From an uncultured Clostridia bacterium (GTDB lineage: Bacteria; Bacillota; Clostridia; TANB77; CAG-508): DNA of 64,000 bases. The translations under genes were made by a program, and so were the position numbers. This document shows, piece by piece, positions 3,001 through 54,190 of this stretch. The stretch spans positions 41,036-105,035 of the forward strand of contig CASDJM010000001.1 of the NCBI GenBank assembly GCA_949280815.1, written 5' to 3'. The notes under the pieces are model-generated. The model was not told the origin of the DNA. It saw only the letters and a program-made list of their open reading frames with translations, and searched no databases. The stretch's first letter is position 1, and every line of letters starts with the position of its first letter.

Positions 3001-6000
3001 TCTTCATTAATTGGATATGGAAGTGTATCTACTATGGTTGCTATTGCCTTTCCTTCAAAATCATTTACTGTTGCATTAAATTCTATTTCATAATATACAT
3101 TAGTATCTTTTGATGTTATCTTATCTTGCTTGCTTGTCTTATCGATGCTAGTTTCATAGCTTACTGTTGGAATGGTTACTTCATTCGTTTCTTCATCATC
3201 TACGATTGCTCTATTCGCTATATTTCCTGTTGTATCTTCTTTAACCGTTACTTCAAAACTTAAAGTTTTTACACTTGCTCCTTCTTCTCCTGCCTCTGGT
3301 ACATTAATTGTAATTCCATTTGCTAAATCTTCTGCTACCATTTCTGCTTTGGCTTCTTCATCAATTTTGATAGAGCCTTCTACAAAGGTAGTCCCTTCTG
3401 GAATATTATCTCTTACGACTACATCTTTTTCTAAGTTTCCTTCATTCTTTACTGTGATTTTATAGGTTATTTTTTCTCCTGGTACTACATATTTTCTACT
3501 ATTGTCTGTTGTTAATTCTTTTGATGCCGTTATCTTTGGTTCTCTTAGTTTATAGTAATAAATTACTACTATATCGTCTTTTGTATATGTTCCATTCGTC
3601 TCTCCAATAGAAGATAAGAACTCATAAGCATCTGAAGCATTTTCACTTGGTTTAGTTGCATAGATATTGCCAACAAAACCTGTTTTTATTTCATCTTCTA
3701 CTACTTCTGTGTCTTTTGCTGGTACTTTGGTTGTTGTTCCTTCAATATAATGATGAACAATTACAGTTCCCGTTATTTTTTCGAATTCTACTTCAACTTC
3801 TTGGTCTTCTCTTAAATCTTCAAATTTGCTTAATTCTACGATTTTATCATCATTTGCTGTGAAGGTTATTTCTTCTCCATTTATCTTTATGGTTTTTACT
3901 TGATATCCTTCATCTGGTGTTATGATAATTTCTTTGGTTGAATCCTCACCATAAATTACTGTTTCATATGGTTTTTGTCCTTCCCCAGAAATACTTCCTC
4001 CTTGCACTTTTGATACTTGACCTAAAGAATCAGTTTCTTCATGCTCTATAACCTTTGTTGTTATTTGAGCTGTTTTCAATTTATAGTAATAGATTACTAC
4101 TATTTCTTCATCTCCATAGGTTCCATTACTATTAGATGGAACTTCTACTAATTCATATTTTTCATTTACATTTGTTAAGCTTTGAGTTGTATATATTTCT
4201 CCTTTGTTTCCTTGTGTTACTAAATCTTGTGCTAATTTATTATTATCTAGTGGTACCTGATTTTCGGTTCCTTCTATATAATAATGTACTGTTAATGGTA
4301 TTTGTTTTTCTTCATAGTAATAAGTAACAATTATTTTTCCTTCTCCATAAACTCCTGTCGCATTGTCTGGTACTACATATTCTTCATCTTCATTTTTTTC
4401 TAAGTCATATCCTACAATATCTAGTTTTGGTTTTGTAACGTAACTATCTCCTTTATCTCCATAGTATATTTCGTCTTCTGCTAATTTTGTATCTGTGTAA
4501 TTTCCTGTTCTATCTTTTAACATATGATGTACGATTACACTTGGTTTTTCATAATCTTGTATCGTAAAAGTATGAGTTCCATTTTGTACAAATTCAATAT
4601 TAGCTATTGCTGTATTAATTTGGTAACCTTCTGGTGCTTCGATTTCAGTTACACGATAAGTTCCGTAAGGTAATTGTGTAACTATTTTTCCTTCACTGTT
4701 AGTTTCTAGTTCTACTTCATATTCTGTCGCATCTTCTTCATTTGGTATTCTTTCTAATCTTATTTTTGCACCTTCTAGTTTAATATTGTTATCTTCTGCA
4801 TCTACTTTTTCTATTTCTATTTTATTAGATGATAGGACATAGGTTACTACTACTTCTTTGTCTTCTGTAATATCAGTAAAGGTTGGCATTGTATAGGTTC
4901 CATCAGCATTTGCTGTAAATTTCTGTTCTTCTCCATTTACAGTAATTTTGATGATTTCATAGTTTGTATCTGGTGTCATTACAATTGATTTTGTGTTAGA
5001 ATCTCCATATTTTACAGTTTCATATATGAAGTCTTTTTCTCCTGAAATGCTTCCACCTTTTATGCCATTAATTGGTTCTACTTTAGTTTTTATATTGTAT
5101 TCTTTTCTGTTGTTGTCTACTTTTAATTCTAAGTTTCCTGGCTTTTCTGCTTCTAATTCTATTTCTTTACATCTTAAAATATATCCATCATAAGAGTTGT
5201 ATCCACCATGATGATTTACAGTGAATCTACTATCTAACTGTAGCGCAGGATGTGCTGTTGTAGATCCACAAAGTACAATATCTCCATTTTCAAGTTGCAC
5301 GATTTCTTTCATATCCATTATATGTGGAGTATTTTCTAAAGTTTTAGTATTTAATACTTTACCATCATTTGAAAATTTAATAATAGCATTATCGGTATAC
5401 CCTCTAGCATTGGTTATTGTTTCTCCTGTAGATAACGTTGCGTTTTGTCGTTGGAACAGACCAATAACTGCAAATCCACCTTCTCTTAGAGCCGTTACTC
5501 CATTAAAAGCATCCCATCCATTCAAAGAATAGATTTCTCTATGATATTCTATTTTTCCATTACTATCATATTTTATTAATAGTCCATCACTGTCCCCTTT
5601 CCTCTGTACAACTTCTTTATTTGATAATCCAATGTTGCCTCCTTGCCATTTTGCTACTACTACATATCCTCCATCATTTATTTGTACTGCATTAAAAGCC
5701 TGATCAATGTCTACTCCTCCGAAAGTATCAACCCATTGTACATTTCCATCACCATCATATTTTGCTACAAATGCATCATTTTCTCCTTTATTAGATATAT
5801 ATTCATCGTCCTTAAAAAATCTTCCACTGCTTCCAGAAAGTCCAGCTATAATAAATCCATCATCATTAGTAGGCTTTATACTATTAATAGAATCATATTC
5901 GTTTCCATTGATTTGTTTATACCATACTATATTCCCTTCGCTATCATACTTTATGATGATTCCATCACGACTACCTGCATTCGTTATATTGCTTCCATTA

Positions 6001-9000
6001 GATAATACAAAACTTGCACTATAATGTCCTGCTACAATACAGCCACCATCTTTTGTTCCTATTGCATCTATAATAAAATCATAAGCACTTGAAGCTATTG
6101 TGTCATACCATACTATATTTCCTTCATTATCATATTTTACTATAATTCCATCTGCATCGACATTACCACCTTTAACCGTTATTTCTACATCATTTGATAA
6201 TCTTATTGTATCTCTAAATTCTCCTACTGCAATATATCCTCCGTCTTCTGTCTGTGCAAATCCATAATAATAATCATCGTCTATGCTACCAAAAGTATCA
6301 CTCCATTCAATCTCATTATCTTGATTATATTTTATGACAAGTGCATCTTTTTTACCATTACTTGTATAGGTTGTTCCATCAGATAATGTTATCGTATCCT
6401 CAAAAGATTTACCTGTAATATATCCTCCATCTGATGTAGCACATATTTTATTTAAATTATCTGTACCTGTTCCGCCAACCATTTCTCCCCATACGGAATA
6501 ATATTGAGTTACTGCTGGTGTTACATTAGCATCCATTAAATTTTCTACTTCTGGATATACAGCCACATCATATTTGGCAATAATTCCTTTGCCTGTATTA
6601 CATCCTCCTATCACATATTTTTCATCATCTGTTTCCACTAAGCCACCAATTGAGAATTCTATGTTTTGGCTCCATTGTTCTTCTCCCTTTTTATTAAATT
6701 TCGTTATATTATTAATATCTAATAATACAAATCCATCATCTTTTGTTGCTACAACGCCATAAATAGCACTTTTCTTTGCTTGATAGCTCCACTCAATTTT
6801 ACCATCTTCACTATATTTTATAACAAAACCTTGAGCTCGATTGGTAGAACCAAAAAGTTCATCTCCATTGGATAATATTAAAGAATCACTACTAACTAAT
6901 CCTACTACTAAATATCCTCCATCTTCTGTAGGAACAATCCCATTTGGCATATCAGATGCAAAACTTTCACTACCTGATCCAGAAATCATATCATACCATA
7001 TTACATTTCCTCGTTTATCATATCTTGCTACAATTATGTCTTGATTCTGAGATGTAATTATTTCTCCATTTGCTAAAGTGATACTACCTGTAAATTGACC
7101 TTCCACTATATATTCATCATTTCCTGCTTTTGCTATACCTCCAATTTGAAAAGGATTTGCTTTGTTCCATTCTATATTTCCGTTTTTATCATATTGCAAT
7201 AACAAACTACACTCGTCACTTTCTATTGTTATTTCTTTTCCAGTCCTTGATGAAGTTATACTGTTACTTCCAACATTTGCTCCTAGCATAACGCCCCCAT
7301 CTGATGTTTCTAAAATGGCACTTATATTTTCAGAACTAGTACCTCCTATTATATCACTCCATAATATATTTCCTTTTGTATCATATTTTACTATAACTAT
7401 ATCAGTTGAGTACGATCTGTTACTTAATACATCTCCGTTAGATAGCGTAATAGAACTTTCTGATGTTTGACCTGCTAATATGTAATTTCCATCTGTTGTT
7501 TCTACTATCTTTTTATAATTTACGTCATATCCGCTACCACCAACAGTATCTGCCCATTCTATTTCTCCTTCTGCATTATATTTCATGATGAAGCTATTTC
7601 CTCCTCCATGATTAGTTAATACCTCTCCATTTGGTAGTGTAATCTTCGGAAAAGTAAAATATCCACTTGTTAAATATCCTCCATCTGATGTTTGAATAAC
7701 ATTGGTATTATAACTTAATTGTCCTCCTTCTATTGTCATTTTCCATTCCTGATTTAATTCAACTTCACCTGCTCTTGAATTTCCAACTCCAAAGTAATAA
7801 CTTCTTTCTTCAATTTCTTCTGGTATTTCATATTTTTCTAAAGTTTCTAATTCAACTACTTTATAAAGTCCCTCTGCTAAATCTGCTGTAATTTGTCCAT
7901 TTTCATCTGTTTTTAATACTCTGTAAGTTTCACCATTAATAGTTTCTAGTTCTCCTAACACTTCTCCCCTTGCATTAGTTGCAAAGGATTCTTCAGCATT
8001 TGCCCCTATCGCATATAAAGCAAATTTTACATTTGGTAATAAGGTGCCTATCTCTCCATCTTTTTTCTCTAACTTAAAGACTGGTTTATCTTCTATAGTT
8101 AGTGATACTATATTTCCATTTATATTAGTTTCTTTTACTTCCCCTGAGATAATATCTACTTGTAATTGTTCTCCTTGGTTATAAGCTTTCAATTTTATTG
8201 GTAAGGTTTTAATATATCCTTGTGGTGCTTCTGTTTCTGTTAGAGTATATTCTACTTCATCATTTTCATCTGTTCCTATGTATAATCCATCAATTGTTAT
8301 TTGACCTGCTTCATTCGTTGTATCATTTTGTGCTTGATCCATTCCTGGTCCTTCTATTTTGAATTTTGCACCTGATAAAGTATCTGTTGTATTCTTTTCT
8401 ACTTTTACAATCTGTAATTGATATGTTGGTCTCGGTTCGTTTTGTAGTTCTAATGTTAATACTGGTATTTCATCTTGTTTCGTTAATTCTGCTTTATAGA
8501 CTTCTCCATTTGTCAAATTGAATTTATATTCACTATCTTCTCTAGTTATGATAAACTTTACTGGCTCTCTCATTAGGAAATAGCCATTTGCTTTGGTTTC
8601 TTCTATGGTATATTCTTCCCCTAAAAGAAATCCTTTTGAACTAATTTCTCCTTCTTGGTTTGTAGTAAACGTCGTTCCACCTTTTCCATCTCCTATTATT
8701 TTAAATTGTGCTCCTTTTAACTTTTCTCCTGTTTGCTTGTCTGTCTTTATGATTTGTAATCTTGCCTTTGGTTCATCTTCTACTTCTAGTTTTACTTTCC
8801 AATCTTTACCTTCTCCTTTTGTAACATTTATATTTCTTGTCGTTCCATTCACTTTATTTACTTGTAAATTACCTTGTTCATCGATTTGTGTATTAATTTT
8901 AATTTCATCTTCGTTTAGTTGATATTCTTGTGGTGTTTTTGTTTCTTTTATAGTATATTCTTTTTCTGCATATAATCCCTTGATTATTAATTTTCCATTT

Positions 9001-12000
9001 TCATCTGTTACTGCAGATCTAGCTTCTTGTGTTTGTGTATCTGTTACAATATAAGTTGCTCCTTTTAGTGCTTTGTCTGTTTTACTTTGATATTTTGTTA
9101 ATTCTAAATCATATTGTTCTGCTATCATAAATCCTAATTTATTAGATTCTACTTTTGTTCTATATTTTCCTTCATCTGTGTCTAAACTAAAGTTTACAGC
9201 ATGTGTACAATAACTTACTTCATTATAGTTTAATCCTTCTGGTATATTTAATTTATAGTTTATTATGAAAGTCTTATCATCTGGCATTACATAATCTTCA
9301 AATACAACTATATAGCTTTTTATATTATCCCAATTTTCAACGTTCTCTGCTGTTACCCAACCATTTTCTTTATTCTCCACATCTATTGTTGGATTTTCAT
9401 TTGTCGTATAATATATTTGTGTATATGCTTTTAAATCATCTGGAACTTCTATTCCTGCAGCCTTCATCGTTGTTGTAAATTGTGAATTTAAGTCTTTTCC
9501 ATTGATAACATAACTATTACCTACAAAAGGTATTCTTCCCATTATAACAATATCACTTATGGTTCCTCCATAGTTGTTTGTAATGTTGATAGAAACTTTC
9601 GCTTCCCTTTGATTCTTATCTATCTTTGCTATTCTTGGTGCTACTGTAATGCTTCCTTTACTATCATACTCTGAAGCACTTGAACTGGTTAACAAACTAC
9701 TTGGTGATACTAAAATCAATTCACTTGTTGAATAACTTACGATTTCTTGTACATTTGCATTATTATTTACATCGTATTGATCTATACCTGAATAATAATA
9801 ATCTTCTGCTTGTTCATTTGATGCATATAATTCTATCTTAGTATTGGTTGTTGAAATGATTGGATCTGATGTCATATCACAGTCAACTATTATATTAAAT
9901 CCTACTTCTATCGTATTGCTTGTATATATTTTGATATAAAAATTCCCATCTTCTTCATATACCTCATAATTGTCTATTTGAACATGAGTATCATTTACCC
10001 TTACAGCATTTACATGTAAATCTATAATCTCTTTTGGAAATTTTAATAAAAATGTTCCATTTATCCATGCGTCTTGGTTGTTTTTCTCATCTCGTACAGC
10101 TTTTATTATTATGTTATTTCCACTTGTTGTTTGTGTTGATGTCGCTTTTGGTTGTGCCTCTACTTGTGCTATTGACATTCTATTCTCATAAGAAGCTTCT
10201 CCATATTTTGTTTCTATATATCGTATATCATCTGTTCCATCTGTTCCAAAATTTACATAACCAGATAGTCTTCCTCTTATATATTTTAATGTCTCAAATT
10301 CCTCTCTTGTATATCTATCAGTTAATTTTTGATCATCTACTTCTTTTATATTTATGATTCCTAAGCTTACACCTGTTACTGGAGTACTCGTTTCTATTCT
10401 TATATGACTTACTCCTTCATCATAATAATATGGGTTTTCTTCATCATATTGTTTGTATTCATCATTTGTAAATTCTACTAACAATTCATTTGTCTCGTCA
10501 TTATATACTCTTATCCATCCGTTGTCTTCTTTTAAGAATCTTGGGTCATTTCTTTCGAAATATAATCCTGTATACTTTACGATATCTCCCATTTCTCCTG
10601 CTGTTGTTTTGTCAGATTTCAAAAATTCATTTGTCTTTTGAACTTCATTTTCATCCACTAATAAATTTCTGGTATCTTTCATTATAATACCTGACTTTTC
10701 TACACTGTCGTTTATTTGTACAACCCACTCCTCTGGATAATAATCTTTCTCTTCGACTTTACCTGCGTTATTATATAGTTGGGTTGGTTTTGATTTTGAT
10801 ACTATCCATCTATGGATTGGTTCTTTTACAAAATCTCCCATATATATCTGAAAAGTTATTTCTTCTTGTATTTGTGTTTCCAATGATATCGTTATATTAT
10901 CATCTACTACATTTGATTTATATGGGGTATCAAATTCCTCATTATCATTATTATATCCTTCATAGTGTGCTGCAATTGGTATAACAAGTTTCTTAAATTC
11001 TTCTATTGCATCATATGCTTCTTCTGGATATTCTATTAAAAACTCATACTCATTATATATATTATTCCACCATACAGTAGTATAGGCATTTGATATTATG
11101 TTTCCTGTTTCATCTACCTCTGCCTTTCTTTGTGCTGTATATTTTCCAGTTTCTTTATTATAAGTATACTCTACATTTGTTCCTGATATTTTTACATCTA
11201 GTGGTTTATATCCATTAAGTTCTGGTATTGTTCCCTCTATATATGATTTACTTAGTATTAATTGATTTGCTGTTTCTTGTGTCACTACTTTAAAAGATAG
11301 TCTCGTTCTATCTTCTTTCTCTTTTCCTACATAAATAGTTCTTCTTCTATTGCCCATATCATTTTTATAAGTTTCTGGAATAGAACACGTTACTTTTCCA
11401 TACCAATCTACTGTTAAATCTATTTCTTTCCTTATTTCTGTTTCTGTTCCGTCTTTTGCCACATAAGTTCCTGTTAATACTACTTGATTTACTCTACTAT
11501 ATTTAGTAGTATCTTTCCCTATTGCATCTATCCTAGTTGTTTTCTGTGAATAATCCCCTGTTCTTACATTTCCTGTTAACAACTTCTGCGTTCCGTTTTC
11601 TATAGTATTTAATTCTATCTTTTTCGTATTTGTATTAATATAATTACTTTTTACCTGCTCATCTTTTACGATAGCAGTATTAAAATAGAAGTTATTTGCA
11701 TTGACAGTTATAATTGGATTTTTTAATGACCCTTCTGTCAATACATTTAATTCTAAATATAGTGTATCTTCTTTTCCTATTTCTTTACAAGTTCCTTTTA
11801 TTCTCTCTGCATAGCCATCTTCATCTAAATCACGCAAAAAGAATGCATTAAATTGGACACAATTGCTAGTACCTTCTACTACTTCTTCTCCTTCTTTAAC
11901 TTGCTCATACGTCATTGCTCTGGCTAATTCTGTATCTATTTCATTAAGTCTGTCTGATTGCATTCTCACTATTAGTATTACAATTAAACCTAATACTGCC

Positions 12001-12060
12001 AATGCAATTCCCATGCTAATGATAACCTTATGTTTTCCATTCTGTCTTTCTTGTTTCATA
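1..12060 (-). CDS. Giant cell-surface repeat protein. It is more than 4000 aa within the window and the C-terminus lies beyond position 1. It has a signal/TM N-terminus, a block of ~50-aa beta-propeller-like repeats, Cna-B/SpaA-type prealbumin-fold repeats, MucBP-like repeats and DUF11-like repeats.
   Basis: Manual minus-strand translation starts at the ATG at 12058-12060 (RBS GGAGGG about 7 nt upstream; N-terminus MKQERQNGKHKVIISMGIALAVLGLIVILIV) and reads without a stop to position 1. Repeated motifs include 'DGGYI.G...LSNG....DAIIKYD..GNI.W', 'VIVHHYIEGT...GNIYAT', 'KATATIVDTLP', 'YT.KETKTPQEY' and 'KITYKITVKNEGNLEKDVVV' (DUF11-like). The ORF track shows only short antisense ORFs here because the ORF leaves the window. 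Confidence 0.85.
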
Positions 12061-24214: not shown

Positions 24215-25153
24215 TTATGTTTTATATAAAATCATTCTAAAACCAATATTATAGTCTGATCCATCTTCCTTATAGCTACGATTTAAAGCCGAGCCATTAA
24301 ATTTAACAGAACCTCCTCGAATGATTCTAAAGAATTGTTGATTAACAGTATCATTATTTATTAAATATCCTTCTGTGGTCCATTCTTCTAAATTTCCAGC
24401 CAAATCACAAATATTATTTACAATATCTGCTTCAGTAGCACCAGTAGGATTGATTGTCTCTGAATAATTACCACGATTTGTACTTGTTGAATAATTAGAA
24501 TTTGATTTATCAATCCATGCAAGTGTTGTATCCCAAGCATAACTATTTATTAAATTGGTAACTACATCTGAATAGTTAAATTCTTTATAAGAATTATTAG
24601 CAGTTTCATAAGCTATTGCATAATTTACATTATTAACAGGTGTTCTGTCACCCATTGTTGCAGAAACATTTTTATTATTGATAGAATAGGCAGAAGATTC
24701 GTATTTTGCGATGTAAAACCCTTTATACTGATTAACACTATTTTTAAAATCAGTTACCATATTTTCTATTTCTACACATTCACTTATATCTATATTCCTA
24801 ATTAATTCCCCATTTTCTACTGGCACCCATACATAGGTATTTCCGTAACTATCTGCAATTGTATATCCTGTTTCTACTTCTCCTTCAACATATGAAAAAC
24901 CATTTGGCATATAAGGTAAATCTTCTTCTACTGTGTTTTCCTCTGTAATATTTTCTTCTACAATGCTTTCTTCAACCGTATTCTCTTTAACAGTATTTTC
25001 TTCCATCGCATTTTCTTTTACGATATCAGTATCTTCTTCCGAGTTTGTAATAGACTCATCATCCCATACTATAACCATTATAATAGGTGCAGAAACTAGA
25101 AGTACGATAGTTGCAACAACTATAATAAAGACTTTTTTGCTCATTTTTTTCAC
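24215..25153 (-). CDS. Membrane-anchored FGE-sulfatase (SUMF1/EgtB/PvdO-type) domain protein. It is the last gene of the T7SS-like operon.
   Basis: N-terminal TM (VFIIVVATIVLLVSAPIIMVIV), an acidic EENTV repeat linker, and C-terminal GFYIAKYESS...DLAGNLEEWT...RIIRGGS...IGFRMI. Confidence 0.65.
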   Translation of the reverse strand: MKKMSKKVFIIVVATIVLLVSAPIIMVIVWDDESITNSEEDTDIVKENAMEENTVKENTVEESIVEENITEENTVEEDLPYMPNGFSYVEGEVETGYTIADSYGNTYVWVPVENGELIRNIDISECVEIENMVTDFKNSVNQYKGFYIAKYESSAYSINNKNVSATMGDRTPVNNVNYAIAYETANNSYKEFNYSDVVTNLINSYAWDTTLAWIDKSNSNYSTSTNRGNYSETINPTGATEADIVNNICDLAGNLEEWTTEGYLINNDTVNQQFFRIIRGGSVKFNGSALNRSYKEDGSDYNIGFRMILYKT

Positions 25154-25163
25154 CCTCCATTAT

Positions 25164-25415
25164 TTATATTAGAACAATTTCAGAACCATTTTGAATCGTA
25201 GATTCTCCAATTGTTAAATTTATGTCAAATGGATTAGCACTCTGCTTGTCATATAACAAGGGCATCTTTTTGGGATTATATTCTCCTTCTGTAAATTCAT
25301 TTATAGCTTTTACAATTAATCTTATAACATTGTGTATGCGCCTATTGGTTGGAATCCATATATCATAAACTTCTTCTATTATAGGAACATATAATTCAAC
25401 TAATATCTTATTCAT
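25164..25415 (-). CDS. esaB: YukD/EsaB-like ubiquitin-fold protein (T7SS)
   Basis: 83 aa; its start overlaps the essC stop; the size and position match YukD. Confidence 0.6.
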   Translation of the reverse strand: MNKILVELYVPIIEEVYDIWIPTNRRIHNVIRLIVKAINEFTEGEYNPKKMPLLYDKQSANPFDINLTIGESTIQNGSEIVLI

Positions 25416-28400
25416 CTTCTTCTTTCTTTTCCTCCATACCTAAAATCTTTACTAATATAGGTCGACCTTTTTTTATTACATATCCATAAGTATTACCACA
25501 GTTATCACTTATTCCATTATAATCAGATATTTTAAAGATACTTTGTGATTCAATGCCACTTCCAATCCAAATACCAAAGTTATTAGAAACATATTTTTTA
25601 TACCATTGTGAATAAGCATATTCTTCTAATTGGCTTGGAGTATCCAAAATAATAATATTAACTTTTTCCAAACTCTCTACTTGACTTAAACCTGATGTAA
25701 ACCATTCTTCGCCAACTATTTCAATCATTTTTCCTAAACCGATAATGAATATAATTGAATTTGGTATCTCTCTATTAGCCTTTTTCGCCTTCATTAAATT
25801 CTTTACGAATTCAAAAAAATTCTTTTGTATTTCTTCTTCATTTTCTTTTTCTATATTTTCTGCATCTAAAACTTCAAAATTAATTTTTGGTATTGATTTT
25901 ATAAGTTCTGAAAAATCACTTATAAAATTTGCACATTCTTCTAAATCTCTAGTAGAAATGATTGTCATAATATTATTTCTAAAGTCAAATTTACAAGGCT
26001 TAATACTTTTTTGGACAATTCCAACAGGAATTGCTGATACGTCTATAACTGCATTTTTTAAATGATTTGGTGTAACAATTTCTGGAACAGTTGGTATTTT
26101 TTTAGCACTATAACTAGATTTCTTATTTAATATTTCTATGGTATTCATTATTTGCTCATTCCATCTACTAGCCTCACATATCTTTGCTGTTTGAAATTCA
26201 AATATACCTTCATTTTCTATACTAATTAAACCTCTACCAAATAGTTTAGCAGGTCTCTTTCTGCCTATATGTTCAAAAATACTTCTGTATTCATCATCAT
26301 TATTCATTTGCAAAGCAATGGATTGTTTAAAGTTTTGAAGCATCCTATATCTCATACATGAAGTAGAAGATGCAACAACTAGAAAATAGATACCACACTT
26401 TTCTCCTTCTCTAACTAAGGTTTGAAATAATTCATCAAATTTCATTTCGTAATTTTCTATATAAGTTTCATAATTGTTTAACATTACAATATAAGTTGGC
26501 ATAGCGTTTCCAGTTGATTTTAAATATAATTTATAATCACCACTATAATCCGATAATATTTCTTTTCTTTCTTTTATTTCCTTTTGTAACATCATAAAAA
26601 ATCTAGTTATTTTTTCTACTTCAGAAACAAAAATAACTTCTCCAACATGTGGTGCTTTTCTAAATGCTTTCATTGCTTCACTACCAAAATCTAATATATA
26701 CAAATTGACCTCTTCTGGTGTATAATTTGTTATAATGTCATAAGCAATCGTTCCTAATAGAGTTTCTTTACCACTTTCAGCATTTCCATATATAATGACA
26801 TTTCCATCTTCTGAAAAATTCAAAGTTTTTACATTTTGTAATTGCTTCGATGGATTATCATATTCTCCTATTACTGGATTAATAATATATTTTTTATTTT
26901 TTACATGATACTTTTCTCTAATTTCATCAAGAAATATAGTTTCTGGAATGTCTTCTAGCCATAATTGTCCTTTATCTATATTTTCTTTTTGAGCCAAATC
27001 TGATAAATATTTTACGATATTAGTTATCTGTTCCCCTTGGCCTTCAATCAATACCTTTTTTTCATCATCTACTTTCTTAAGTACCATACCAGTATCTGAA
27101 ATAAATTCTATAGAATTATCAAATTCCTTTTTTACTTCATTGGATGGATAATATTGTGCTCCTGCCCAAGCTGCTTGCCCTAAAACCAAATAATCATTAC
27201 TTCCTACTCTTAAATAGAATTGTCCAGAACCTTTCAATTTTGCCCCATCTGGAATTCCTATAATATCGGAGCTATCCGATGGTGACTGAACCTTTAGACA
27301 TATTCCAAATTTTGTGTTACTAGTAATTTGTTCATTTACGACACCAGCTGGTTTTTGCGTTGCTAATATTAAATGAACTCCTAAACTTCTACCAATTCTG
27401 GCAATACTAACAAGCTCGTCCATAAATTCAGGTTCTTGTTGCTTTAATTCAGCAAATTCATCACTGATAATGAACAAATGAGAAATCGGTTTTTTTAAGG
27501 CTCCTTGATGATATAATCTTTGGTATTTATAAATATCCATGGTGCTTTCATTGGTAATATCTTTTGCTTCATTAAATTCAATTTGCCTTCTTTTTAATTC
27601 ACTTTCAATCGATTCTAATGACCTTTGCAATCCGCTTTTATCAATATTGGTTAATGTTCCAACTAAATGTGGTAACTGTACGTCTAATCTTTTAAAAGCT
27701 CCTGCTAATCCACCACCTTTATAGTCGATTAATACAAAAGTCACATCATCTGGATGATAATTGACAGCTAAGGACAAAATATAGGTAATAATAAATTCAC
27801 TTTTTCCTGAACCAGTACTACCACCAATCAAGCCATGTGGCCCATGATATTTTTCGTGTATATCTAATTCAACTTTATTTCCATTACTATCTATTCCAAG
27901 TGGTGTTGCTAATGATAGCGTAGAATCATTTTTCTTCCATCTTTCTAAGACATTTAATTGCTCAATACATCCAACATTAAACATTTCTAAAAATGTATAA
28001 CTACTAGGTAATAATAATGATTTTTCTTCTACATATTTTATCGGAATATTAGAAAGAACTGGAGTAATTTTATCAAAGAAAAGTATGGTTGATGTGTCAA
28101 TTCTAAATTTAGTTTGATTATCCGCTACATTTTTTGTTTCAAACAAGATTCCATTACCATCACTTAAATTGATAAATGTTTCACATTGGTTTGGAAGATA
28201 GTTAATATCATTTGTAATAATAAAAATACTAAAACCTATATTTTTTTCTGCACTTAAAATCTCGTTAATTAAATTTAAATTTTCTGCAATTTTATAATCA
28301 TCGATAATGATTAAATAGTAAGGTATTTCAGCTGTATAATCGAAATGTTCGTCATCTTTCCTTTTCCTTACCTCATTTTCCAAGTGTTGAGAAATTTCTT

Positions 28401-30012
28401 TAATTTTAGCATAATTATCTGCAAAAAAACGCATTGTTTTAGAACCATTCCAAGTATGTGGTAACATTTTTACAAAATCCCAATTTCGATTCACATTGTC
28501 TTTTAATAAAAAAACAAATTTTAGTTCATCATAACTTTGAAATGTTACTAATTGTGTTAATAAATCTTGCATAAATACATTCTTTTTATCTTCATCTTCG
28601 ACAATCAATGCAGAGACTCTTTTTTGTGTCAAATTTAGTAAAACTGGAGCATCTCTTAATATTTTAGCTTTTTGTATACTGTTTTCCATTAATGCCTGTA
28701 ATTCTTGTTCTTCTTTTTCCTTTTCTTCTGTTTCATCTTTTAACTGCATAGTATCAATTTTTATGTTGGATGGAATATCTCCTAATCCTAATCTGACTGT
28801 TATAAAATCTTTATCTGTTAATTTCCTTTCCCATAATCTCGCAGTTTTATTGATTATGATATTCATACATTCTTCAGCAGAAACATAAGTATTTAATAAA
28901 GTATTTTTACTTGTCTGCAAAATTTTATCAATGGTAGCTATCTTATTGTTTATATATGTCTTATAATTTCTTATTTTATCTTTTTTATTTTTTTCTCTTT
29001 GTTCTGTTGTATATTGTTGAATAAGAAGTGGTATTAATACAGAACATAAAATCATGATTCCGGAAGCTACTAAACTAAATATTGCATTTTTTTTCGTTAC
29101 TTGACCATGAATAAAATTATCTACTGTTTGGATTACAGTTATAAATGTCATTGCTCCCATAGAAAGCATAGAAGCCATTGCCAAAATAATCGGTAATTCT
29201 TTTTCTTGTTTTGTATCCATAGGTTTCTCTATTGTAATTGTTTGTTCATCAACTAAATCCATTATTCTAGGTGGTCTCAAAAAATATTTCTCATCGCTCT
29301 CTTCATTTTTTTCTTGATCTTCTTTTTCTAGAATTTGTTGATTATCTGAGGTAGTTAATGAAAAATAATTAGAATTTAATCTCACTTTATTAGAAGGATT
29401 ATTAATAAATATACTATTTCCCATTATTATAATTTTTAGTCCAAAAATAAATATAACATCACCATTATATAACATTTTAGATTTATTAGAAACGGGAATA
29501 TCATTTACGTATATGTCAAAATTGTTATAGTAACTTTCTATCATCCATAAACTATTAGAATGATATATTTTTACATGATTTTCGCCTATAAAAGCATTAT
29601 TAAATACAATATGATTGGTTTTTTTATTACTCCCAATATAAATTTCAGTTGTATTTATGATATCAAAATGGGAGAAAGTATTGTCATATAATGGCATACA
29701 ACATAATAAGTAGATTTCATTTTTATTGGCAAGTTTTATATAATAAGTTTCATAATTTTCTAAAATAACAGCATCCATTATTTTTTCTTTTCCTGTTATT
29801 TTTATTTCGTTGTTCACTATTTCAATACTTTTTTTGCTAATAATACTTGAATAATTAGTACTTACAATTTGCCATTTATCATTAATACTTTGAATGTTTA
29901 CTAGCTTTTTTTCTACTTCTGTACTTTTATCACATAACCAATAATTCCCAGTAGGTTTATTGGGCAAAATTATTTTGTTGAGTGAATTTTTTCCTATTAG
30001 TGTAACAACCAT
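25408..30012 (-). CDS. essC: Type VII secretion FtsK/SpoIIIE-family ATPase EssC/YukBA
   Basis: About 1530 aa. N-terminal FHA-like region, then TM segments, then three P-loop ATPase domains (HGLIGGSTGSGKSEF..; GNAESGKETLL..). Likely start MVVTLIGK with RBS AAGGGGAAG; the ORF-track TTG at 30078 is less likely. Confidence 0.85.
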   Translation of the reverse strand: MVVTLIGKNSLNKIILPNKPTGNYWLCDKSTEVEKKLVNIQSINDKWQIVSTNYSSIISKKSIEIVNNEIKITGKEKIMDAVILENYETYYIKLANKNEIYLLCCMPLYDNTFSHFDIINTTEIYIGSNKKTNHIVFNNAFIGENHVKIYHSNSLWMIESYYNNFDIYVNDIPVSNKSKMLYNGDVIFIFGLKIIIMGNSIFINNPSNKVRLNSNYFSLTTSDNQQILEKEDQEKNEESDEKYFLRPPRIMDLVDEQTITIEKPMDTKQEKELPIILAMASMLSMGAMTFITVIQTVDNFIHGQVTKKNAIFSLVASGIMILCSVLIPLLIQQYTTEQREKNKKDKIRNYKTYINNKIATIDKILQTSKNTLLNTYVSAEECMNIIINKTARLWERKLTDKDFITVRLGLGDIPSNIKIDTMQLKDETEEKEKEEQELQALMENSIQKAKILRDAPVLLNLTQKRVSALIVEDEDKKNVFMQDLLTQLVTFQSYDELKFVFLLKDNVNRNWDFVKMLPHTWNGSKTMRFFADNYAKIKEISQHLENEVRKRKDDEHFDYTAEIPYYLIIIDDYKIAENLNLINEILSAEKNIGFSIFIITNDINYLPNQCETFINLSDGNGILFETKNVADNQTKFRIDTSTILFFDKITPVLSNIPIKYVEEKSLLLPSSYTFLEMFNVGCIEQLNVLERWKKNDSTLSLATPLGIDSNGNKVELDIHEKYHGPHGLIGGSTGSGKSEFIITYILSLAVNYHPDDVTFVLIDYKGGGLAGAFKRLDVQLPHLVGTLTNIDKSGLQRSLESIESELKRRQIEFNEAKDITNESTMDIYKYQRLYHQGALKKPISHLFIISDEFAELKQQEPEFMDELVSIARIGRSLGVHLILATQKPAGVVNEQITSNTKFGICLKVQSPSDSSDIIGIPDGAKLKGSGQFYLRVGSNDYLVLGQAAWAGAQYYPSNEVKKEFDNSIEFISDTGMVLKKVDDEKKVLIEGQGEQITNIVKYLSDLAQKENIDKGQLWLEDIPETIFLDEIREKYHVKNKKYIINPVIGEYDNPSKQLQNVKTLNFSEDGNVIIYGNAESGKETLLGTIAYDIITNYTPEEVNLYILDFGSEAMKAFRKAPHVGEVIFVSEVEKITRFFMMLQKEIKERKEILSDYSGDYKLYLKSTGNAMPTYIVMLNNYETYIENYEMKFDELFQTLVREGEKCGIYFLVVASSTSCMRYRMLQNFKQSIALQMNNDDEYRSIFEHIGRKRPAKLFGRGLISIENEGIFEFQTAKICEASRWNEQIMNTIEILNKKSSYSAKKIPTVPEIVTPNHLKNAVIDVSAIPVGIVQKSIKPCKFDFRNNIMTIISTRDLEECANFISDFSELIKSIPKINFEVLDAENIEKENEEEIQKNFFEFVKNLMKAKKANREIPNSIIFIIGLGKMIEIVGEEWFTSGLSQVESLEKVNIIILDTPSQLEEYAYSQWYKKYVSNNFGIWIGSGIESQSIFKISDYNGISDNCGNTYGYVIKKGRPILVKILGMEEKKEEDE

Positions 30013-30192
30013 TTCTTTCTTCCCCTTATCTCTTTGTATATTTGTGGATATTATATCATTCAAATAGCTTAATGTCAAAGTTTTTAACTACGTTCCATAC
30101 GTTTTCTTATATCTTGTTACTACTCGGTCTTATTATCTTTTTGTTCTAAAAGTTTATATATTTTTTACGAGCAAAAATAATCTCAATTATAG

Positions 30193-30226
30193 CACTAAAA
30201 AGACAAAGCAATCTTTTACTTTGTCT
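30193..30226 (-). terminator. Weak intrinsic terminator or attenuator between the WXG gene and essC
   Basis: Minus-strand GACAAAG-loop-CUUUGUC followed by UUUUUAG. Confidence 0.35.
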
Positions 30227-30252
30227 CTTGACAATACTTTTATAACAAAATA

Positions 30253-30972
30253 CTATGTATTTGATTCCCAATCGTAACTTGCAGACTTTGCTTTTTCTGC
30301 CTGTTGCTCAGCTTCTATTGCTCCACTCTTCAATCCACTTATATCTGCACGAATAGCACTTCTTTTATTTCCTTCTTCTGCCGCCTCCATTGCTTCTGCC
30401 TGTGCTTCTAAAGCTTTTCTATAAGCTGTTCTTATTTTTTTCACAGCTTCTATTGTGTCCTCCATATACTTTTTAAATTCCTTTTTTAAAGCATCTCCTG
30501 TAGAACCTTTCCAAATAATTGAATTAAAATCTTCTTTGATATTTGGAAGATTTGTCTTTAAGATATTATCAAATCTCTGATCTATTTTGCTTGTTAATGA
30601 AGCCATACCAGCTGAATTGAATTTTATTTCATCTCCTTGATCTTTAATAGGTAATTTCTCAAATATAGTTACGCCATATGGATAAATTGTTACTTTCTTT
30701 TTTTCCATTGCTTTAGCATATTGATTTCTTTTAGCAACAATTTCCTCTGGTAATTTGTCAGTGAAATAGGTATGCATCTTTTGTAATGTTGGTATTGTTT
30801 TATTCACTATAGTTACAAAATGAACATAAGAATCTCCTTTCCAATATTGTTGCATATTTTCAACATCATTAAGCATATTAAGAATCTTATTTCCTAAATT
30901 ATTTCCCCTATTTGAAATTGATTCAGCTATAGTTCTCATTTGTTTTAAATTAACGGTTGCATCTACTCCCAT
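30253..30972 (-). CDS. Tandem double WXG100 (ESAT-6-like) protein, 239 aa
   Basis: Two helix-WxG-helix units: ...MQQYWKGDSYVHF... and ...NSIIWKGSTGDALKK...; coiled-coil C-terminus; RBS AAGGAG. Confidence 0.6.
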   Translation of the reverse strand: MGVDATVNLKQMRTIAESISNRGNNLGNKILNMLNDVENMQQYWKGDSYVHFVTIVNKTIPTLQKMHTYFTDKLPEEIVAKRNQYAKAMEKKKVTIYPYGVTIFEKLPIKDQGDEIKFNSAGMASLTSKIDQRFDNILKTNLPNIKEDFNSIIWKGSTGDALKKEFKKYMEDTIEAVKKIRTAYRKALEAQAEAMEAAEEGNKRSAIRADISGLKSGAIEAEQQAEKAKSASYDWESNT

Positions 30973-31080
30973 AATTCAACACTCCTTTTCTATCTTTATT
31001 ATCAAAAAGTACTTATATATACTCTCCATTTTAGATTCTACTATAGTTAAACCTAATATGTCAATCTCAGATAAATTAAA

Positions 31081-31124
31081 ATTAGATTACAATTAGATTA
31101 CAATTAGATTACAATTAGATTACG
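31081..31124. repeat. 11-bp tandem repeat (ATTAGATTACA) x4 in the prfA / T7SS-operon intergenic region
   Basis: attagattacaattagattacaattagattacaattagattacg. Confidence 0.9.
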
Positions 31125-31200
31125 ATTCCTTTCGCTTTTTAATATCTTTCTTCCTACTTCATCAATTCTCTTTAAATTTCCTTTTCAAAGATTTCCTATA

Positions 31201-53388: not shown

Positions 53389-53766
53389 ATGGAAATAGAT
53401 AAAATTATGATAGGAAATCGAATAAAAATACTCCGCAAAGAATTCAAATTAACCCAAGAAGAATTAGCTTTAAAGCTAGGTTTAAAAGGAAAATCTAGTA
53501 TTGCTAATTATGAAAAAGGTACCATAAGTCCTAGTGATGATATAAAACTACAAATGTCAAAATTATTCAATTGCTCTATCGATTATTTAATGGGTGTTTC
53601 TGATGTGCGCAATTCACAAGAAATTAATTTAGATAAATTAGATATTGCATTTGCTACTGGTATAAAAGGCTTAAATAAAGAAAATCAAAAAATTGCTAAA
53701 GATATTATAGAAGGTTTGCTCGCAAAACAAAAAAATGAGGAAAATAAAAAGGAGACTAATAATTAA
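53389..53766 (+). CDS. XRE-family HTH transcriptional regulator
   Basis: IGNRIKILRKEFKLTQEELALKLGLKGKSSIANYEKG. Confidence 0.8.
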   Translation: MEIDKIMIGNRIKILRKEFKLTQEELALKLGLKGKSSIANYEKGTISPSDDIKLQMSKLFNCSIDYLMGVSDVRNSQEINLDKLDIAFATGIKGLNKENQKIAKDIIEGLLAKQKNEENKKETNN

Positions 53767-53773
53767 TTAAAAG

Positions 53774-54190
53774 ATGGACCCAACTGAATTATATAAAATG
53801 ATGGAAGATGAAAACATTAATTATATAAATCATGACTTGTTCTCTACAAGTGGAATGATAGCTCATTATGAAGATATAACTGCCATTATAGTAGATGACA
53901 AAAAAGTTAAAGGACAAGTTGCAGAAAATACCGTCTTAATACAGGAATTAGGACATTACATGTCAGGTGCATACTATCGCACGAACAGTCCCTATGAGTT
54001 AATAGAAAAAATGGAACATAAAGCAGATAAAAAAGCTTGGGAGGAATTTTTCCCTTATGAAGAAATCAAAGAGCTCATGAAAAAAGGATTAACAACTGTA
54101 ACACAACTAGCCGAATATTATGATGTAGAAGCTCCCTATATGGCTAGATGTATTAATTATTACTATAATCAATATCATGGTTTTGATTAA
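53774..54190 (+). CDS. Hypothetical protein adjacent to the XRE regulator (possibly a degenerate ImmA/IrrE-like protein)
   Basis: IQELGHY resembles HEXXH but lacks the first His. Confidence 0.4.
   Translation: MDPTELYKMMEDENINYINHDLFSTSGMIAHYEDITAIIVDDKKVKGQVAENTVLIQELGHYMSGAYYRTNSPYELIEKMEHKADKKAWEEFFPYEEIKELMKKGLTTVTQLAEYYDVEAPYMARCINYYYNQYHGFD

What the first reader, a model, noticed from the sequence alone, without database searches (positions are those of the whole stretch)
24215..30972. Minimal non-canonical T7SSb-like locus: double-WXG, EssC, YukD and an FGE-domain membrane protein, with no EssA, EssB or EsaA
Gene order on the minus strand is: WXG-like (30253..30972), a weak terminator, essC (25408..30012), a translationally coupled yukD/esaB (25164..25415), and a membrane-anchored FGE-sulfatase-domain protein (24215..25153). 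The canonical Firmicute components EssA, EssB (the YukC pseudokinase) and EsaA are absent from the locus. The FGE/SUMF1-type domain is not, to my knowledge, an established T7SS component. This may represent a distinct reduced T7SS subtype with a novel accessory or substrate protein.
Basis: partly seen in the sequence, partly recalled or inferred. Interest (0 to 1): 0.65.

Follow-up and report, generated by a model that had tools for sequence, protein, structure and literature searches.

The report
Compact relocatable type VII secretion cassette
This is a stripped-down type VII protein-secretion gene cassette (a fused double-WXG100 substrate, the EssC motor ATPase and a small YukD-like partner) from an uncultured gut Clostridium, and the "sulfatase-modifying-enzyme" gene next to it is a non-enzymatic surface protein that travels with the cassette only in this narrow lineage, not a general part of the machine.

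Summary
The four minus-strand genes exist as described: a double WXG100 (30972-30253), FHA-EssC (30012-25408), a YukD-like 83-aa ORF that overlaps the essC stop by 8 nt, and a membrane-anchored FGE-like protein (25153-24215). No EssB/YukC, EssA or EsaA lies in the 64-kb window or in about 15 related loci.

This absence is not new as a kind. Garrett et al. 2024 defined T7SSc-j, which all lack these proteins and share the WXG100 + YukD-like + EssC core. What stands out is that an EssC clade (42-61% identity, over 120 clusters, uncultured gut Clostridia) carries only that core, with a fused 200-250-aa double WXG100. The cassette also sits at four different positions in one shared chromosomal backbone.

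The FGE-like gene is not a general component:
- 0 of 79 genomic homologues lie near an EssC.
- It is absent from most trio loci, including a relative with 74% EssC identity.
- It lacks cysteines where I recall the catalytic pair.
- Its nearest solved folds are CarF, a DGR variable protein and PorK.

In the window's own sublineage, however, it moves with the cassette, is probably co-transcribed with it and is under purifying selection. I read it as a lineage-specific add-on of unknown role.

This is a new variant of a known kind, of moderate interest.

The parts
31075..31127 (.). 11-nt tandem repeat (4.8 copies, 95% match) immediately upstream of the WXG promoter. It may be a phased regulator-binding array at the upstream edge of the cassette.
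   Evidence: Tandem Repeats Finder and the sequence itself. L146 has phased TGTAA(T/C) repeats at the same position. The function is inferred only.
31035..31064 (-). Sigma-70-like promoter (TTGACA-18-TAGAAT, 11/12 matches) in front of the double-WXG gene.
   Evidence: This is a consensus match only. A GGAG ribosome-binding site lies before the ATG at 30972.
30253..30972 (-). Fused double WXG100 protein (239 aa): two helix-turn-helix hairpins, each with W-K-G at the turn, and a flexible C-terminal tail ending in a conserved Y-D-W. It is the likely secreted TsxA/EsxA equivalent.
   Evidence: Pfam WXG100. NCBIfam TIGR03930 in two stretches and ESAT6_2 on residues 115-201. AlphaFold helices 9-40, 47-88, 120-150 and 158-205. 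Y and W of the tail are invariant in 7 homologues. The family has 155 representative clusters, nearly all 200-250 aa and matched across both hairpins.
30192..30229 (-). Hairpin plus U-tract after the WXG stop codon: a probable (leaky) intrinsic terminator separating the WXG gene from essC.
   Evidence: RNA fold -19.9 kcal/mol, z = -4.96, and 0 of 200 shuffles fold as well. The simple consensus scan missed it because it has few G-C pairs.
30050..30078 (-). Perfect extended sigma-70 promoter (TTGACA-17-TG-TATAAT, 12/12) for essC-yukD-FGE.
   Evidence: with the sequence.
25408..30012 (-). EssC/TsxC: N-terminal FHA region, two transmembrane helices and FtsK/SpoIIIE ATPase domains with intact P-loops in D1 (GSGKS) and D2 (ESGKE).
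   Evidence: Pfam FHA and FtsK_SpoIIIE. TIGR03928 scores 900.6 bits against a cut-off of 778.4. The best solved relative is B. subtilis YukB, 9qks (E 3e-115). Sequence. dN/dS is 0.13 against L146.
25164..25415 (-). YukD/EsaB-like 83-aa protein (TsxB equivalent). Its start overlaps the essC stop codon by 8 nt.
   Evidence: Pfam YukD E 0.005, 17.9 bits, below the cut-off; 3 of 11 orthologues hit YukD. It follows EssC directly in every locus of the clade whose contig extends past essC, overlapping it or within about 15 nt. dN/dS is 0.17.
24215..25153 (-). Single-pass membrane protein with an acidic repeat linker and an extracytoplasmic, non-catalytic FGE-like (C-type-lectin-like) domain. It is the last gene of the cassette in this sublineage.
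   Evidence: PF03781, 28 bits, C-terminal half of the profile only. AlphaFold pLDDT is mostly above 85 for residues 80-312. Best Foldseek hits are CarF, TaqVP, PorK and OvoA. Profile-to-PDB search finds PorK and CalU17 but no true FGE. There is no Cys in the RGGS...GFR segment in 30 homologues. Homology to L146 ends at its stop codon. dN/dS is 0.21-0.38.

Best explanation
The locus is a compact, self-contained type VII secretion cassette of a T7SSb-related but reduced kind. Its conserved core has three genes:
- a fused double-WXG100 protein, i.e. an EsxA-type dimer made as a single chain;
- an FHA-EssC membrane ATPase;
- an 83-aa YukD-like protein whose start overlaps the essC stop.

Inferred mechanism, by homology with T7SSb. 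EssC multimerises in the membrane through its two transmembrane helices. The YukD-like protein binds and stabilises EssC, as YukD does for YukB in B. subtilis. The flexible C-terminal tail of the double-WXG protein (conserved YDW) docks on a C-terminal ATPase domain of EssC, and ATP hydrolysis drives export. The WXG gene has its own promoter and a leaky terminator. essC, yukD and the FGE-like gene are read from a second, consensus promoter.

The fourth gene encodes a membrane-anchored, outward-facing, non-enzymatic FGE-like domain protein. It is not part of the conserved machine. It joined the cassette in one sublineage and has since been co-inherited, co-relocated and probably co-transcribed with it. 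It is most likely a lineage-specific cell-surface add-on: an envelope-side accessory or a protective/binding protein. It is not a formylglycine-generating enzyme.

Shown: gene content, domain assignments, conservation pattern, relocation and purifying selection. Inferred: assembly, secretion, the role of YDW and the role of the FGE-like protein.
For: Gene identities.

The core trio recurs.
- WXG(200-250 aa), EssC and an adjacent YukD-like ORF occur in L003, L087-L094, L140-L143, L145 and L146. They are flanked by unrelated housekeeping genes such as yqfD/ybeY, pta-ackA, mreBCD and murT.
- Exceptions: L092 is cut within essC, so no YukD can be seen there. L139 and L144 show EssC-YukD without a recognisable WXG.
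- No YukC, EssA, EsaA, kinase, PP2C or FHA-partner families appear beside the genes. The only nearby PP2C and PASTA kinase (L142) lie after rlmN, in what I read as the housekeeping operon.
- More distant EssCs (28-33% identity) do sit with kinase, PP2C and FHA genes. The method therefore detects such partners when they are present.

The cassette relocates within one backbone.
- Window: prfA | WXG-EssC-YukD-FGE | ZIP.
- L146 (EssC 90%): ddl | the same four genes | dnaJ.
- L140: traG-HTH | trio | sbcD, with prfA directly followed by an intact ZIP.
- L139: ATP_bind_3.. | EssC-YukD | tadA.

Expression signals.

All four genes are under purifying selection with similar dS: EssC 0.36, FGE 0.38, WXG 0.48. 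Backbone dS is 0.23-0.64.

FGE is not general.
- 0 of 79 genomic family loci are T7SS-linked.
- 13 of the 79 lie after rplU-rpmA, and tandem copies are common.
- It is absent in L087-L094, L139-L144 and within the sequenced part of L145.

FGE is non-catalytic.

YukD's role in EssC/YukB assembly: PMC12637312. The universal TsxA/B/C core and the existence of EssB-less subtypes: PMC11217815.
Against: - Only 64 kb of this genome, and up to 10 kb either side in relatives, could be searched. EssB-, EssA- or EsaA-like or other membrane partners encoded elsewhere cannot be excluded.
- In canonical T7SSb the EssC FHA domains bind EssB. Here the FHA region has no known partner.
- The YukD assignment is sub-threshold (17.9 bits against 27; no PDB hit).
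- No LXG or other effector lies in the window, so only the WXG protein can be named as a substrate.
- Some relatives carry extra unannotated genes between WXG and EssC, for example 357, 479 and 239 aa in L141 and 612 aa in L143. These could be missing machine parts rather than cargo.
- Regarding FGE as a mere add-on: it stays fused to the cassette through at least two relocations, lies 10 nt after yukD with no detected terminator between them, and the two T7SS-linked FGE groups are sister in an NJ tree (66% bootstrap). A real functional tie in this sublineage is therefore possible.
- No secretion has been shown experimentally.
Confidence: 0.62

Rival explanations
1. The FGE-like membrane protein is a true structural or regulatory subunit of this T7SS. 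It would act as an envelope-side partner that replaces the missing EssA/EssB/EsaA ectodomains, much as the FGE-fold lipoprotein PorK forms part of the type IX secretion ring.
For: - It starts 10 nt after yukD, on the same strand, with no detected terminator between them and the consensus promoter upstream of essC.
- It relocates together with the trio (window versus L146), and it has three different downstream neighbours in the window, L146 and L006.
- Its dS matches that of EssC, and its dN/dS is 0.21-0.38.
- T7SS-linked copies form one clade in an NJ tree (66% bootstrap).
- The nearest solved sequence relatives are PorK chains.
- It is single-pass, like several accessory T7SS components named in PMC11217815.
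Against: - It is absent from the 74%-identity cassette (L139) and from all loci at 42-58% identity, which keep an intact EssC-YukD pair and, in most cases, a WXG gene.
- The family is overwhelmingly unlinked to T7SS (0 of 79 loci), is multi-copy, and often sits after rplU-rpmA.
- In L003 it lies at the opposite end of the locus, 121 nt upstream of the WXG gene.
- The window copy has lost the Ig-like module that most family members have.
Confidence: 0.2
2. The FGE-like protein is immunity or protective cargo carried in the variable region downstream of essC. It would be a binding scaffold that shields the producer's envelope from a T7SS-delivered toxin, possibly the pore-forming-type WXG protein itself. 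FGE-like Tsi3 proteins confer immunity in a comparable way to type VI effectors.
For: - FGE-like proteins are an experimentally supported, non-enzymatic T6SS immunity family (bioRxiv 10.1101/2021.05.21.445229).
- The ectodomain faces outward and lacks cysteines in the segment where I recall the catalytic pair.
- The gene occupies the position after essC/yukD. From my own knowledge, T7SSb loci carry variable effector/immunity genes there.
- The family is multi-copy with tandem arrays.
- The second WXG half matches NCBIfam 'pore-forming ESAT-6 family', and the WXG protein evolves fast (dN/dS 0.56).
Against: - No toxin gene (LXG, RHS or similar) lies next to it here or next to the 79 genomic homologues.
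- Many homologues sit in housekeeping contexts.
- The family is fairly conserved (40-50% identity across many MAGs), unlike typical fast-evolving immunity genes.
- Most cassettes with the same WXG family lack it.
Confidence: 0.13
3. The locus is a decaying remnant of a canonical T7SSb that has lost essA, essB and esaA and no longer secretes anything.
For: - The window has several interrupted genes: ZIP is split by an 8.5-kb insert and a serine recombinase is split.
- In L139 the EssC appears N-terminally shortened and no WXG gene was found.
- No effector genes are present.
Against: - All four ORFs are full-length, and the WXG protein is 100% identical on 13 contigs, from at least four different sequencing runs.
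- The essC promoter is a perfect consensus.
- dN/dS is 0.13-0.21 for EssC, YukD and FGE.
- Full-length EssC with an adjacent YukD-like ORF was found in every locus examined out of more than 120 EssC clusters, and the matching double-WXG family has 155 representative clusters. This is not the pattern of a pseudogenising remnant.
Confidence: 0.05

Closest known systems
T7SSb (Ess/Yuk system of Staphylococcus aureus and Bacillus subtilis)
   Same: - The EssC has an N-terminal FHA region, two TM helices and FtsK-type ATPase domains, and it passes the NCBIfam EssC equivalog model.
- Its best solved relative is B. subtilis YukB.
- A small YukD-like protein and a WXG100 substrate are present.
   Different: - No EssB/YukC, EssA or EsaA lies in the window or in related loci.
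- yukD follows and overlaps essC. From my own recollection of the B. subtilis yuk and S. aureus ess operons, it precedes essC there.
- The WXG100 protein is a single-chain fusion of two hairpins (about 200-250 aa) rather than a homodimer of about 100-aa subunits.
- No LXG effector or immunity genes lie in the cassette.
T7SSf and T7SSg of Garrett, Higginson & Palmer 2024 (PMC11217815)
   Same: - Both are Bacillota/Clostridia systems without EssA, EssB or EsaA, built around TsxA (WXG100), TsxB (YukD-like) and TsxC (EssC).
- T7SSf TsfC has FHA domains.
- T7SSg is similarly small and uses two WXG100 proteins.
   Different: - T7SSf also has a PP2C phosphatase (TsfF), a DUF6382-FHA membrane protein (TsfJ) and an AAA+ ATPase (TsfV). 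None was found beside the cassette in the window or the clade loci. (L142 has a 273-aa ORF with a faint CbiA hit after YukD.)
- T7SSg TsgC lacks FHA domains, and the system has a DUF5050 beta-propeller (TsgL) and adjacent Tad pilus genes, none of which is found here.
- Neither subtype is described with a fused double WXG100 or an FGE-like gene.
- EssC could not be placed in their tree, because no reference sequences were available.
PorK/GldK (type IX secretion), TaqVP (DGR variable protein), CarF and Tsi3: non-enzymatic FGE-fold proteins
   Same: - The ectodomain of the fourth gene shares the FGE / C-type-lectin-like fold and the C-terminal GN(V/L)xEW...RGGS...GFR signature.
- It lacks cysteines where I recall the catalytic pair.
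- PorK shows that this fold can be a secretion-machine part. Tsi3 shows that it can be an immunity scaffold.
   Different: - Identity is only 9-14% and TM-scores are 0.35-0.46.
- It is anchored by an N-terminal helix in a monoderm rather than by a lipid anchor.
- There is no PorN-like partner, no DGR template repeat or reverse transcriptase in the window, and no adjacent toxin.

Membership tests
Type VII secretion system (any subtype) | Membrane-bound FtsK/SpoIIIE-family EssC/EccC ATPase | tested here: met
   Pfam FtsK_SpoIIIE E 4.2e-47. TIGR03928 scores 900.6 bits, above the 778.4 cut-off. Two hydrophobic helices are visible in the sequence.
Type VII secretion system (any subtype) | WXG100-family protein encoded with the ATPase | tested here: met
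   Pfam WXG100 scores 34 bits, above the 27.3 cut-off. There are two WXG100-like stretches. The model shows four helices.
Type VII secretion system (any subtype) | Ubiquitin-like YukD/EsaB (TsxB) protein | tested here: inconclusive
   Pfam YukD scores 17.9 bits, below the 27 cut-off. Three of 11 orthologues hit it. A profile finds no solved YukD. The size, and direct adjacency to or overlap with essC in every locus that extends past essC, fit.
Type VII secretion system (any subtype) | EssC-dependent export of the WXG100 protein | not testable with these tools
   This requires an experiment.
Canonical T7SSb | EssB/YukC pseudokinase membrane protein in the locus | tested here: not met
   No YukC family was found in any window ORF scanned. 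None appears in the precomputed Pfam lists of related loci. The rest of the genome was not searchable.
Canonical T7SSb | EsaA/YueB large polytopic protein and EssA/YueC small membrane protein in the locus | tested here: not met
   The calls are the same as for EssB. The only very large protein in the window is a SpaA/Cna_B/MucBP adhesin about 12 kb away.
T7SSf (Garrett et al. 2024) | TsfF PP2C phosphatase, TsfJ DUF6382-FHA membrane protein and TsfV AAA+/TadZ-like ATPase beside TsfA/B/C | tested here: not met
   None is present in the window or beside the cassette in the EssC-clade loci. Such partners were detected beside more distant EssCs. L142 has a 273-aa ORF with a faint CbiA hit after YukD.
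T7SSg (Garrett et al. 2024) | TsgC without FHA domains; DUF5050 propeller TsgL; adjacent Tad pilus genes | tested here: not met
   This EssC has an FHA domain. No DUF5050 or Tad genes are in the window.
Formylglycine-generating enzyme (catalytic FGE/SUMF1) | Full-length FGE-sulfatase domain | tested here: inconclusive
   PF03781 scores 28 bits, above the 23.3 cut-off, but only profile positions 118-254 of 255 match. The fold is FGE-like.
Formylglycine-generating enzyme (catalytic FGE/SUMF1) | Catalytic cysteine pair in the segment between RGGS and GFR (the position is from my own knowledge of human and bacterial FGE) | tested here: not met
   No cysteine occurs in that segment in the window protein or in any of 29 homologues. 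No true FGE appears among the PDB profile hits or the top Foldseek hits.
FGE-like T6SS immunity proteins (Tsi3 family) | Encoded next to a cognate antibacterial effector | tested here: not met
   No toxin-like gene lies beside it in the window. No conserved partner was found in 79 genomic loci.
Diversity-generating retroelement variable protein (C-type-lectin fold) | Template repeat matching the C-terminal variable region, plus a reverse transcriptase nearby | tested here: not met
   Apart from the self-match, no repeat of 24215-24500 longer than 47 nt at 72% identity occurs anywhere in the window. No RT was found among the scanned ORFs.

The most novel reading that the evidence does not exclude
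The three-gene module (single-chain double WXG100, FHA-EssC, YukD-like) is a complete, autonomous type VII secretion machine. EssC alone would form the membrane channel. The module moves as a cassette between chromosomal sites in gut Clostridia. In one sublineage it has recruited an outward-facing FGE-fold protein as an optional envelope-side adaptor. This would be the smallest natural T7SS and a first link between the FGE fold and type VII secretion.
Probability: 0.25. Interest if true: 0.7.

Novelty: new variant of a known kind. Interest (0 to 1): 0.45.

Why it matters
If the trio works on its own, it would define the minimal parts list of a type VII secretion system. It would also be a tractable three-gene target for reconstitution and cryo-EM, addressing whether EssC by itself can form the translocation channel. 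That question remains open because every studied T7SS has extra membrane subunits.

The single-chain double WXG100 would show that the obligate EsxA dimer can be hard-wired into one polypeptide. The system is widespread in uncultured gut Clostridia, where nothing is known about what T7SS does. Its appearance at different sites in one backbone suggests an unrecognised way for secretion cassettes to move.

The FGE-like gene matters less. It is a reminder that an 'FGE-sulfatase' annotation often marks a binding scaffold rather than an enzyme.

Tried and rejected
- **DGR target hypothesis for the FGE-like protein.** The C-type-lectin fold and the RGGS...GFR C-terminus resemble DGR variable regions. 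Rejected: the window has no template repeat, and the C-terminus is conserved rather than hypervariable.
- **FGE as a general T7SS partner.** Rejected by the genome scan, in which 0 of 79 loci had T7SS genes, and by 14 EssC-clade loci without it.
- **Conserved partner of the FGE family.** Neighbour clustering found only rplU/rpmA synteny in 13 of 79 loci and tandem paralogues, and no toxin.
- **'Genome full of pseudogenes, so the T7SS is a remnant'.** Partly withdrawn. The split murF and split TraG are conserved in L140 and L146 with low dN/dS. Only the ZIP and serine-recombinase interruptions look like real disruptions.
- **Foldseek on the double-WXG model.** It returned only generic single-chain helical bundles and was uninformative.
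- **Profile search of YukD-like orthologues against the PDB.** No YukD hit.
- **Self-BLAST of the two WXG halves.** Not significant.
- **Literature search for fused or tandem WXG100.** Nothing found.
- **Placing EssC in the T7SSb-j tree.** Not possible, because reference sequences are not retrievable with these tools.
- **Locating the source genome.** The best FGE hit there was only 42-47% identical.

Full report
**1. What is there**

The window is about 29% G+C. Its genes are most similar to those of uncultured gut Clostridia MAGs.

- **Double WXG100, 30972-30253 (239 aa).** It matches Pfam WXG100 over residues 7-69. NCBIfam finds WXG100-type matches in both halves (TIGR03930 in two stretches; ESAT6_2 on residues 115-201). 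Each half has a W-K-G motif. The AlphaFold model has four long helices whose turns fall on the two WKG motifs, followed by a disordered tail ending in a conserved Y-D-W. 'Double WXG' is therefore correct.
- **EssC.** It starts at the ATG at 30012. The upstream TTG that the ORF listing chose is the -35 hexamer of a perfect TTGACA-17-TGxTATAAT promoter. The protein has an FHA domain and FtsK/SpoIIIE domains. It passes the NCBIfam EssC equivalog model with 900 bits against a cut-off of 778. Its closest solved relative is B. subtilis YukB.
- **YukD-like, 25415-25164 (83 aa).** It overlaps the essC stop by 8 nt. It hits Pfam YukD only below threshold (17.9 bits against 27; 3 of 11 orthologues; no PDB YukD hit).
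- **FGE-like, 25153-24215.** It begins 10 nt after yukD. It has an N-terminal signal-anchor helix, an acidic repeat linker and a domain that matches the C-terminal half of PF03781 (28 bits).
- **Signals.** A 14-bp hairpin with a U-tract follows the WXG gene (z = -4.96). A second promoter-like site and an 11-nt tandem repeat (4.8 copies) precede it.
- **Rest of the window.** No other window ORF scanned matches any T7SS family.

**2. The FGE-like protein is not an enzyme and not a general T7SS part**

In an alignment of 30 family members there is no cysteine in the RGGS...GFR segment. From my own knowledge of human and bacterial FGE, the catalytic cysteine pair lies in that segment.

The domain is modelled confidently (pLDDT mostly above 85). 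Its best structural matches are CarF, the DGR variable protein TaqVP, the type IX secretion protein PorK and OvoA. A sequence profile finds PorK and CalU17 but no true FGE. The window contains no DGR template repeat.

The family has 168 hits and is multi-copy in several MAGs. Typical members are about 375 aa and carry an extra Ig-like module that the window copy lacks.

None of 79 genomic loci holding a homologue has EssC, YukD or the WXG protein within 10 kb. Thirteen of the 79 lie after rplU-rpmA, tandem paralogues are common, and no conserved partner exists.

**3. The conserved unit is a trio**

EssC homologues at 42-61% identity form a large clade of more than 120 clusters, about 1525 aa each, all from metagenomes or MAGs. 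Contexts were examined for L003, L087-L094 and L139-L146.

- In every locus that extends past essC, EssC is followed directly by the YukD-like ORF, overlapping it or within about 15 nt.
- In most loci a 200-250-aa WXG protein lies upstream. L139 and L144 are exceptions: no recognisable WXG gene was found there.
- DUF4176 or other unannotated genes sometimes lie in between.
- The flanks are unrelated housekeeping genes.
- No YukC, EssA, EsaA, T7SS-type kinase, PP2C or FHA partner appears beside the cassette.
- More distant EssCs (28-33% identity) do sit beside kinases, PP2C and FHA proteins. The approach therefore sees such partners when they exist.
- The double-WXG family has 155 representative clusters, almost all 200-250 aa and matched across both hairpins.

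**4. The cassette changes place, and in this sublineage FGE goes with it**

Relatives share the window's backbone (prfA 92%, pcrA 90%, ddl 71-88%, dnaJ-like 73-95% identity). The cassette sits at four different positions in that backbone:

| Source | EssC identity to window | Arrangement |
|---|---|---|
| Window | 100% | prfA \| WXG-EssC-YukD-FGE \| ZIP |
| L146 | 90% | ddl \| the same four genes \| dnaJ-like |
| L140 | 55% | traG-HTH \| trio \| sbcD, with prfA followed directly by an intact ZIP |
| L139 | 74% | ATP_bind_3.. \| EssC-YukD \| tadA, with no FGE and no WXG found |

The ZIP upstream region is conserved between the window and L140 and starts just after the FGE stop codon. Homology between the window and L146 ends at the FGE stop. 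FGE is therefore physically the last gene of a four-gene block in the window, L146 and L006 (EssC at least 83% identical).

In L003 (EssC 60%) an FGE homologue lies at the other end of the locus, before two double-WXG paralogues. The two T7SS-linked FGE groups are sister in an NJ tree with 66% bootstrap support.

Between the window and L146, dS is similar for EssC (0.36), FGE (0.38) and WXG (0.48), and comparable to the backbone (0.23-0.64). dN/dS is 0.13 for EssC, 0.17 for YukD, 0.21 for FGE and 0.56 for WXG. All four genes are thus maintained by selection and were inherited together. The secreted WXG protein evolves fastest.

**5. How it most likely works**

By homology (inferred, not shown):
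- EssC multimerises in the membrane.
- The YukD-like protein stabilises it, as YukD does for YukB (PMC12637312).
- The single-chain WXG pseudo-dimer presents its C-terminal tail to an EssC ATPase domain, as described for EsxA and EsxAB (PMC11217815), and is exported.
- The WXG gene is transcribed from its own promoter and largely terminated at the hairpin.
- essC-yukD-FGE are read from the consensus promoter.

By eye, the FHA segment lacks the usual Arg/Ser phosphothreonine-binding residues. This fits the absence of a kinase. It is my own reading and was not tested.

The FGE-like ectodomain faces outward. Its role is open. I rank the possibilities as follows:
- a lineage-specific surface add-on without an essential machine role (within the best explanation, 0.62);
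- a real envelope-side subunit (0.20);
- an immunity-type scaffold like the FGE-like T6SS immunity protein Tsi3 (0.13).

A decaying remnant is unlikely (0.05), given intact ORFs, low dN/dS and wide conservation.

**6. Comparison with what is known**

T7SS variants without EssA, EssB or EsaA are established. Garrett, Higginson & Palmer 2024 defined T7SSc-j from RefSeq genomes and named TsxA/TsxB/TsxC as the near-universal core.

The present system matches none of their subtypes by gene content. T7SSf has PP2C, DUF6382-FHA and AAA+ components. T7SSg has an FHA-less ATPase, a DUF5050 protein and Tad pilus genes. That paper and its supplements mention neither a fused WXG100 protein nor an FGE-like gene. 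By sequence the EssC is T7SSb-like.

I therefore file it as a T7SS and as a new variant of a known kind: a bare-core, double-WXG cassette. I do not file it as canonical T7SSb or T7SSf.

The main limitation is that only 64 kb of this genome, and up to 10 kb around relatives, could be searched. Partners encoded elsewhere remain possible.

**7. Verdict**

The 'missing EssA/EssB/EsaA' point is real but already known as a category. The 'FGE as novel T7SS component' idea holds only as a narrow, lineage-specific physical association of unknown function. The more interesting result is the widespread, relocating three-gene T7SS core with a fused WXG100. Interest: 0.45.

Noticed in passing
window 14782-15111 and 23646-24137, with the insert at 15112-23645: The ZIP metal-transporter gene is split into an N-terminal part (163 aa) and a C-terminal part (109 aa) by an insert of about 8.5 kb. 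The insert carries a large serine recombinase that is itself split (17217-18002 and 18109-18765), a DUF4143 ATPase, two GNAT acetyltransferases, an MBL-fold hydrolase and a serine hydrolase. ZIP is intact in the relative L140. The N-terminal junction of the insert (ZIP fragment followed by the MBL hydrolase) is present in other samples of the same species (L135, L136).
   Followed up: partly
window 40564-41472 and 41528-41962: murF is encoded as two separate ORFs: 144 aa (Mur_ligase N-terminal domain) and 302 aa (middle and C-terminal domains). The same split occurs in L140 and L146. Both halves are under purifying selection (dN/dS 0.11-0.15). This looks like a conserved split gene rather than a sequencing error.
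   Followed up: partly
window 35521-37089 and 37067-37549: A TraG/VirD4-type coupling protein is encoded as a 160-aa membrane part plus a 522-aa ATPase part, in overlapping frames. It sits among housekeeping genes with no other conjugation genes nearby. L140 has the same arrangement, so this is either a conserved orphan or a programmed frameshift.
   Followed up: partly
window 2-12059, minus strand, running off the window start: One open reading frame of more than 4,036 aa encodes a giant surface adhesin. It has an N-terminal signal/anchor and SpaA, Cna_B, DUF11 and seven MucBP domains.
   Followed up: partly
window 31075-31127; L146 about 2660-2740: An 11-nt tandem repeat (ATTACAATTAG, 4.8 copies) lies directly upstream of the -35 of the double-WXG promoter. 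The relocated cassette in L146 has phased TGTAA(T/C) repeats at the same place. The array may be a regulator-binding site, or it may be related to the edge of the cassette.
   Followed up: partly
window 30253-30972 compared with L146 2811-3545: The double-WXG protein diverges much faster than the rest of the cassette. It is 61% identical with dN/dS 0.56, where EssC is 90% identical with dN/dS 0.13. In L140 it is only 26% identical, against 55% for EssC. This suggests relaxed or diversifying selection on the secreted protein.
   Followed up: partly
L003 11229-11942 and 12032-12727: One related lineage carries two tandem paralogues of the double-WXG gene (237 and 231 aa). Both end in a YDW-type tail.
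   Followed up: no
window 53389-54190; L140 6631-6993; L141 2635-3027: In L140 and L141 an XRE-type HTH regulator is transcribed divergently next to the WXG gene. The window cassette has none next to it. An XRE gene with a 138-aa partner lies at the site that the cassette occupies in L139.
   Followed up: no
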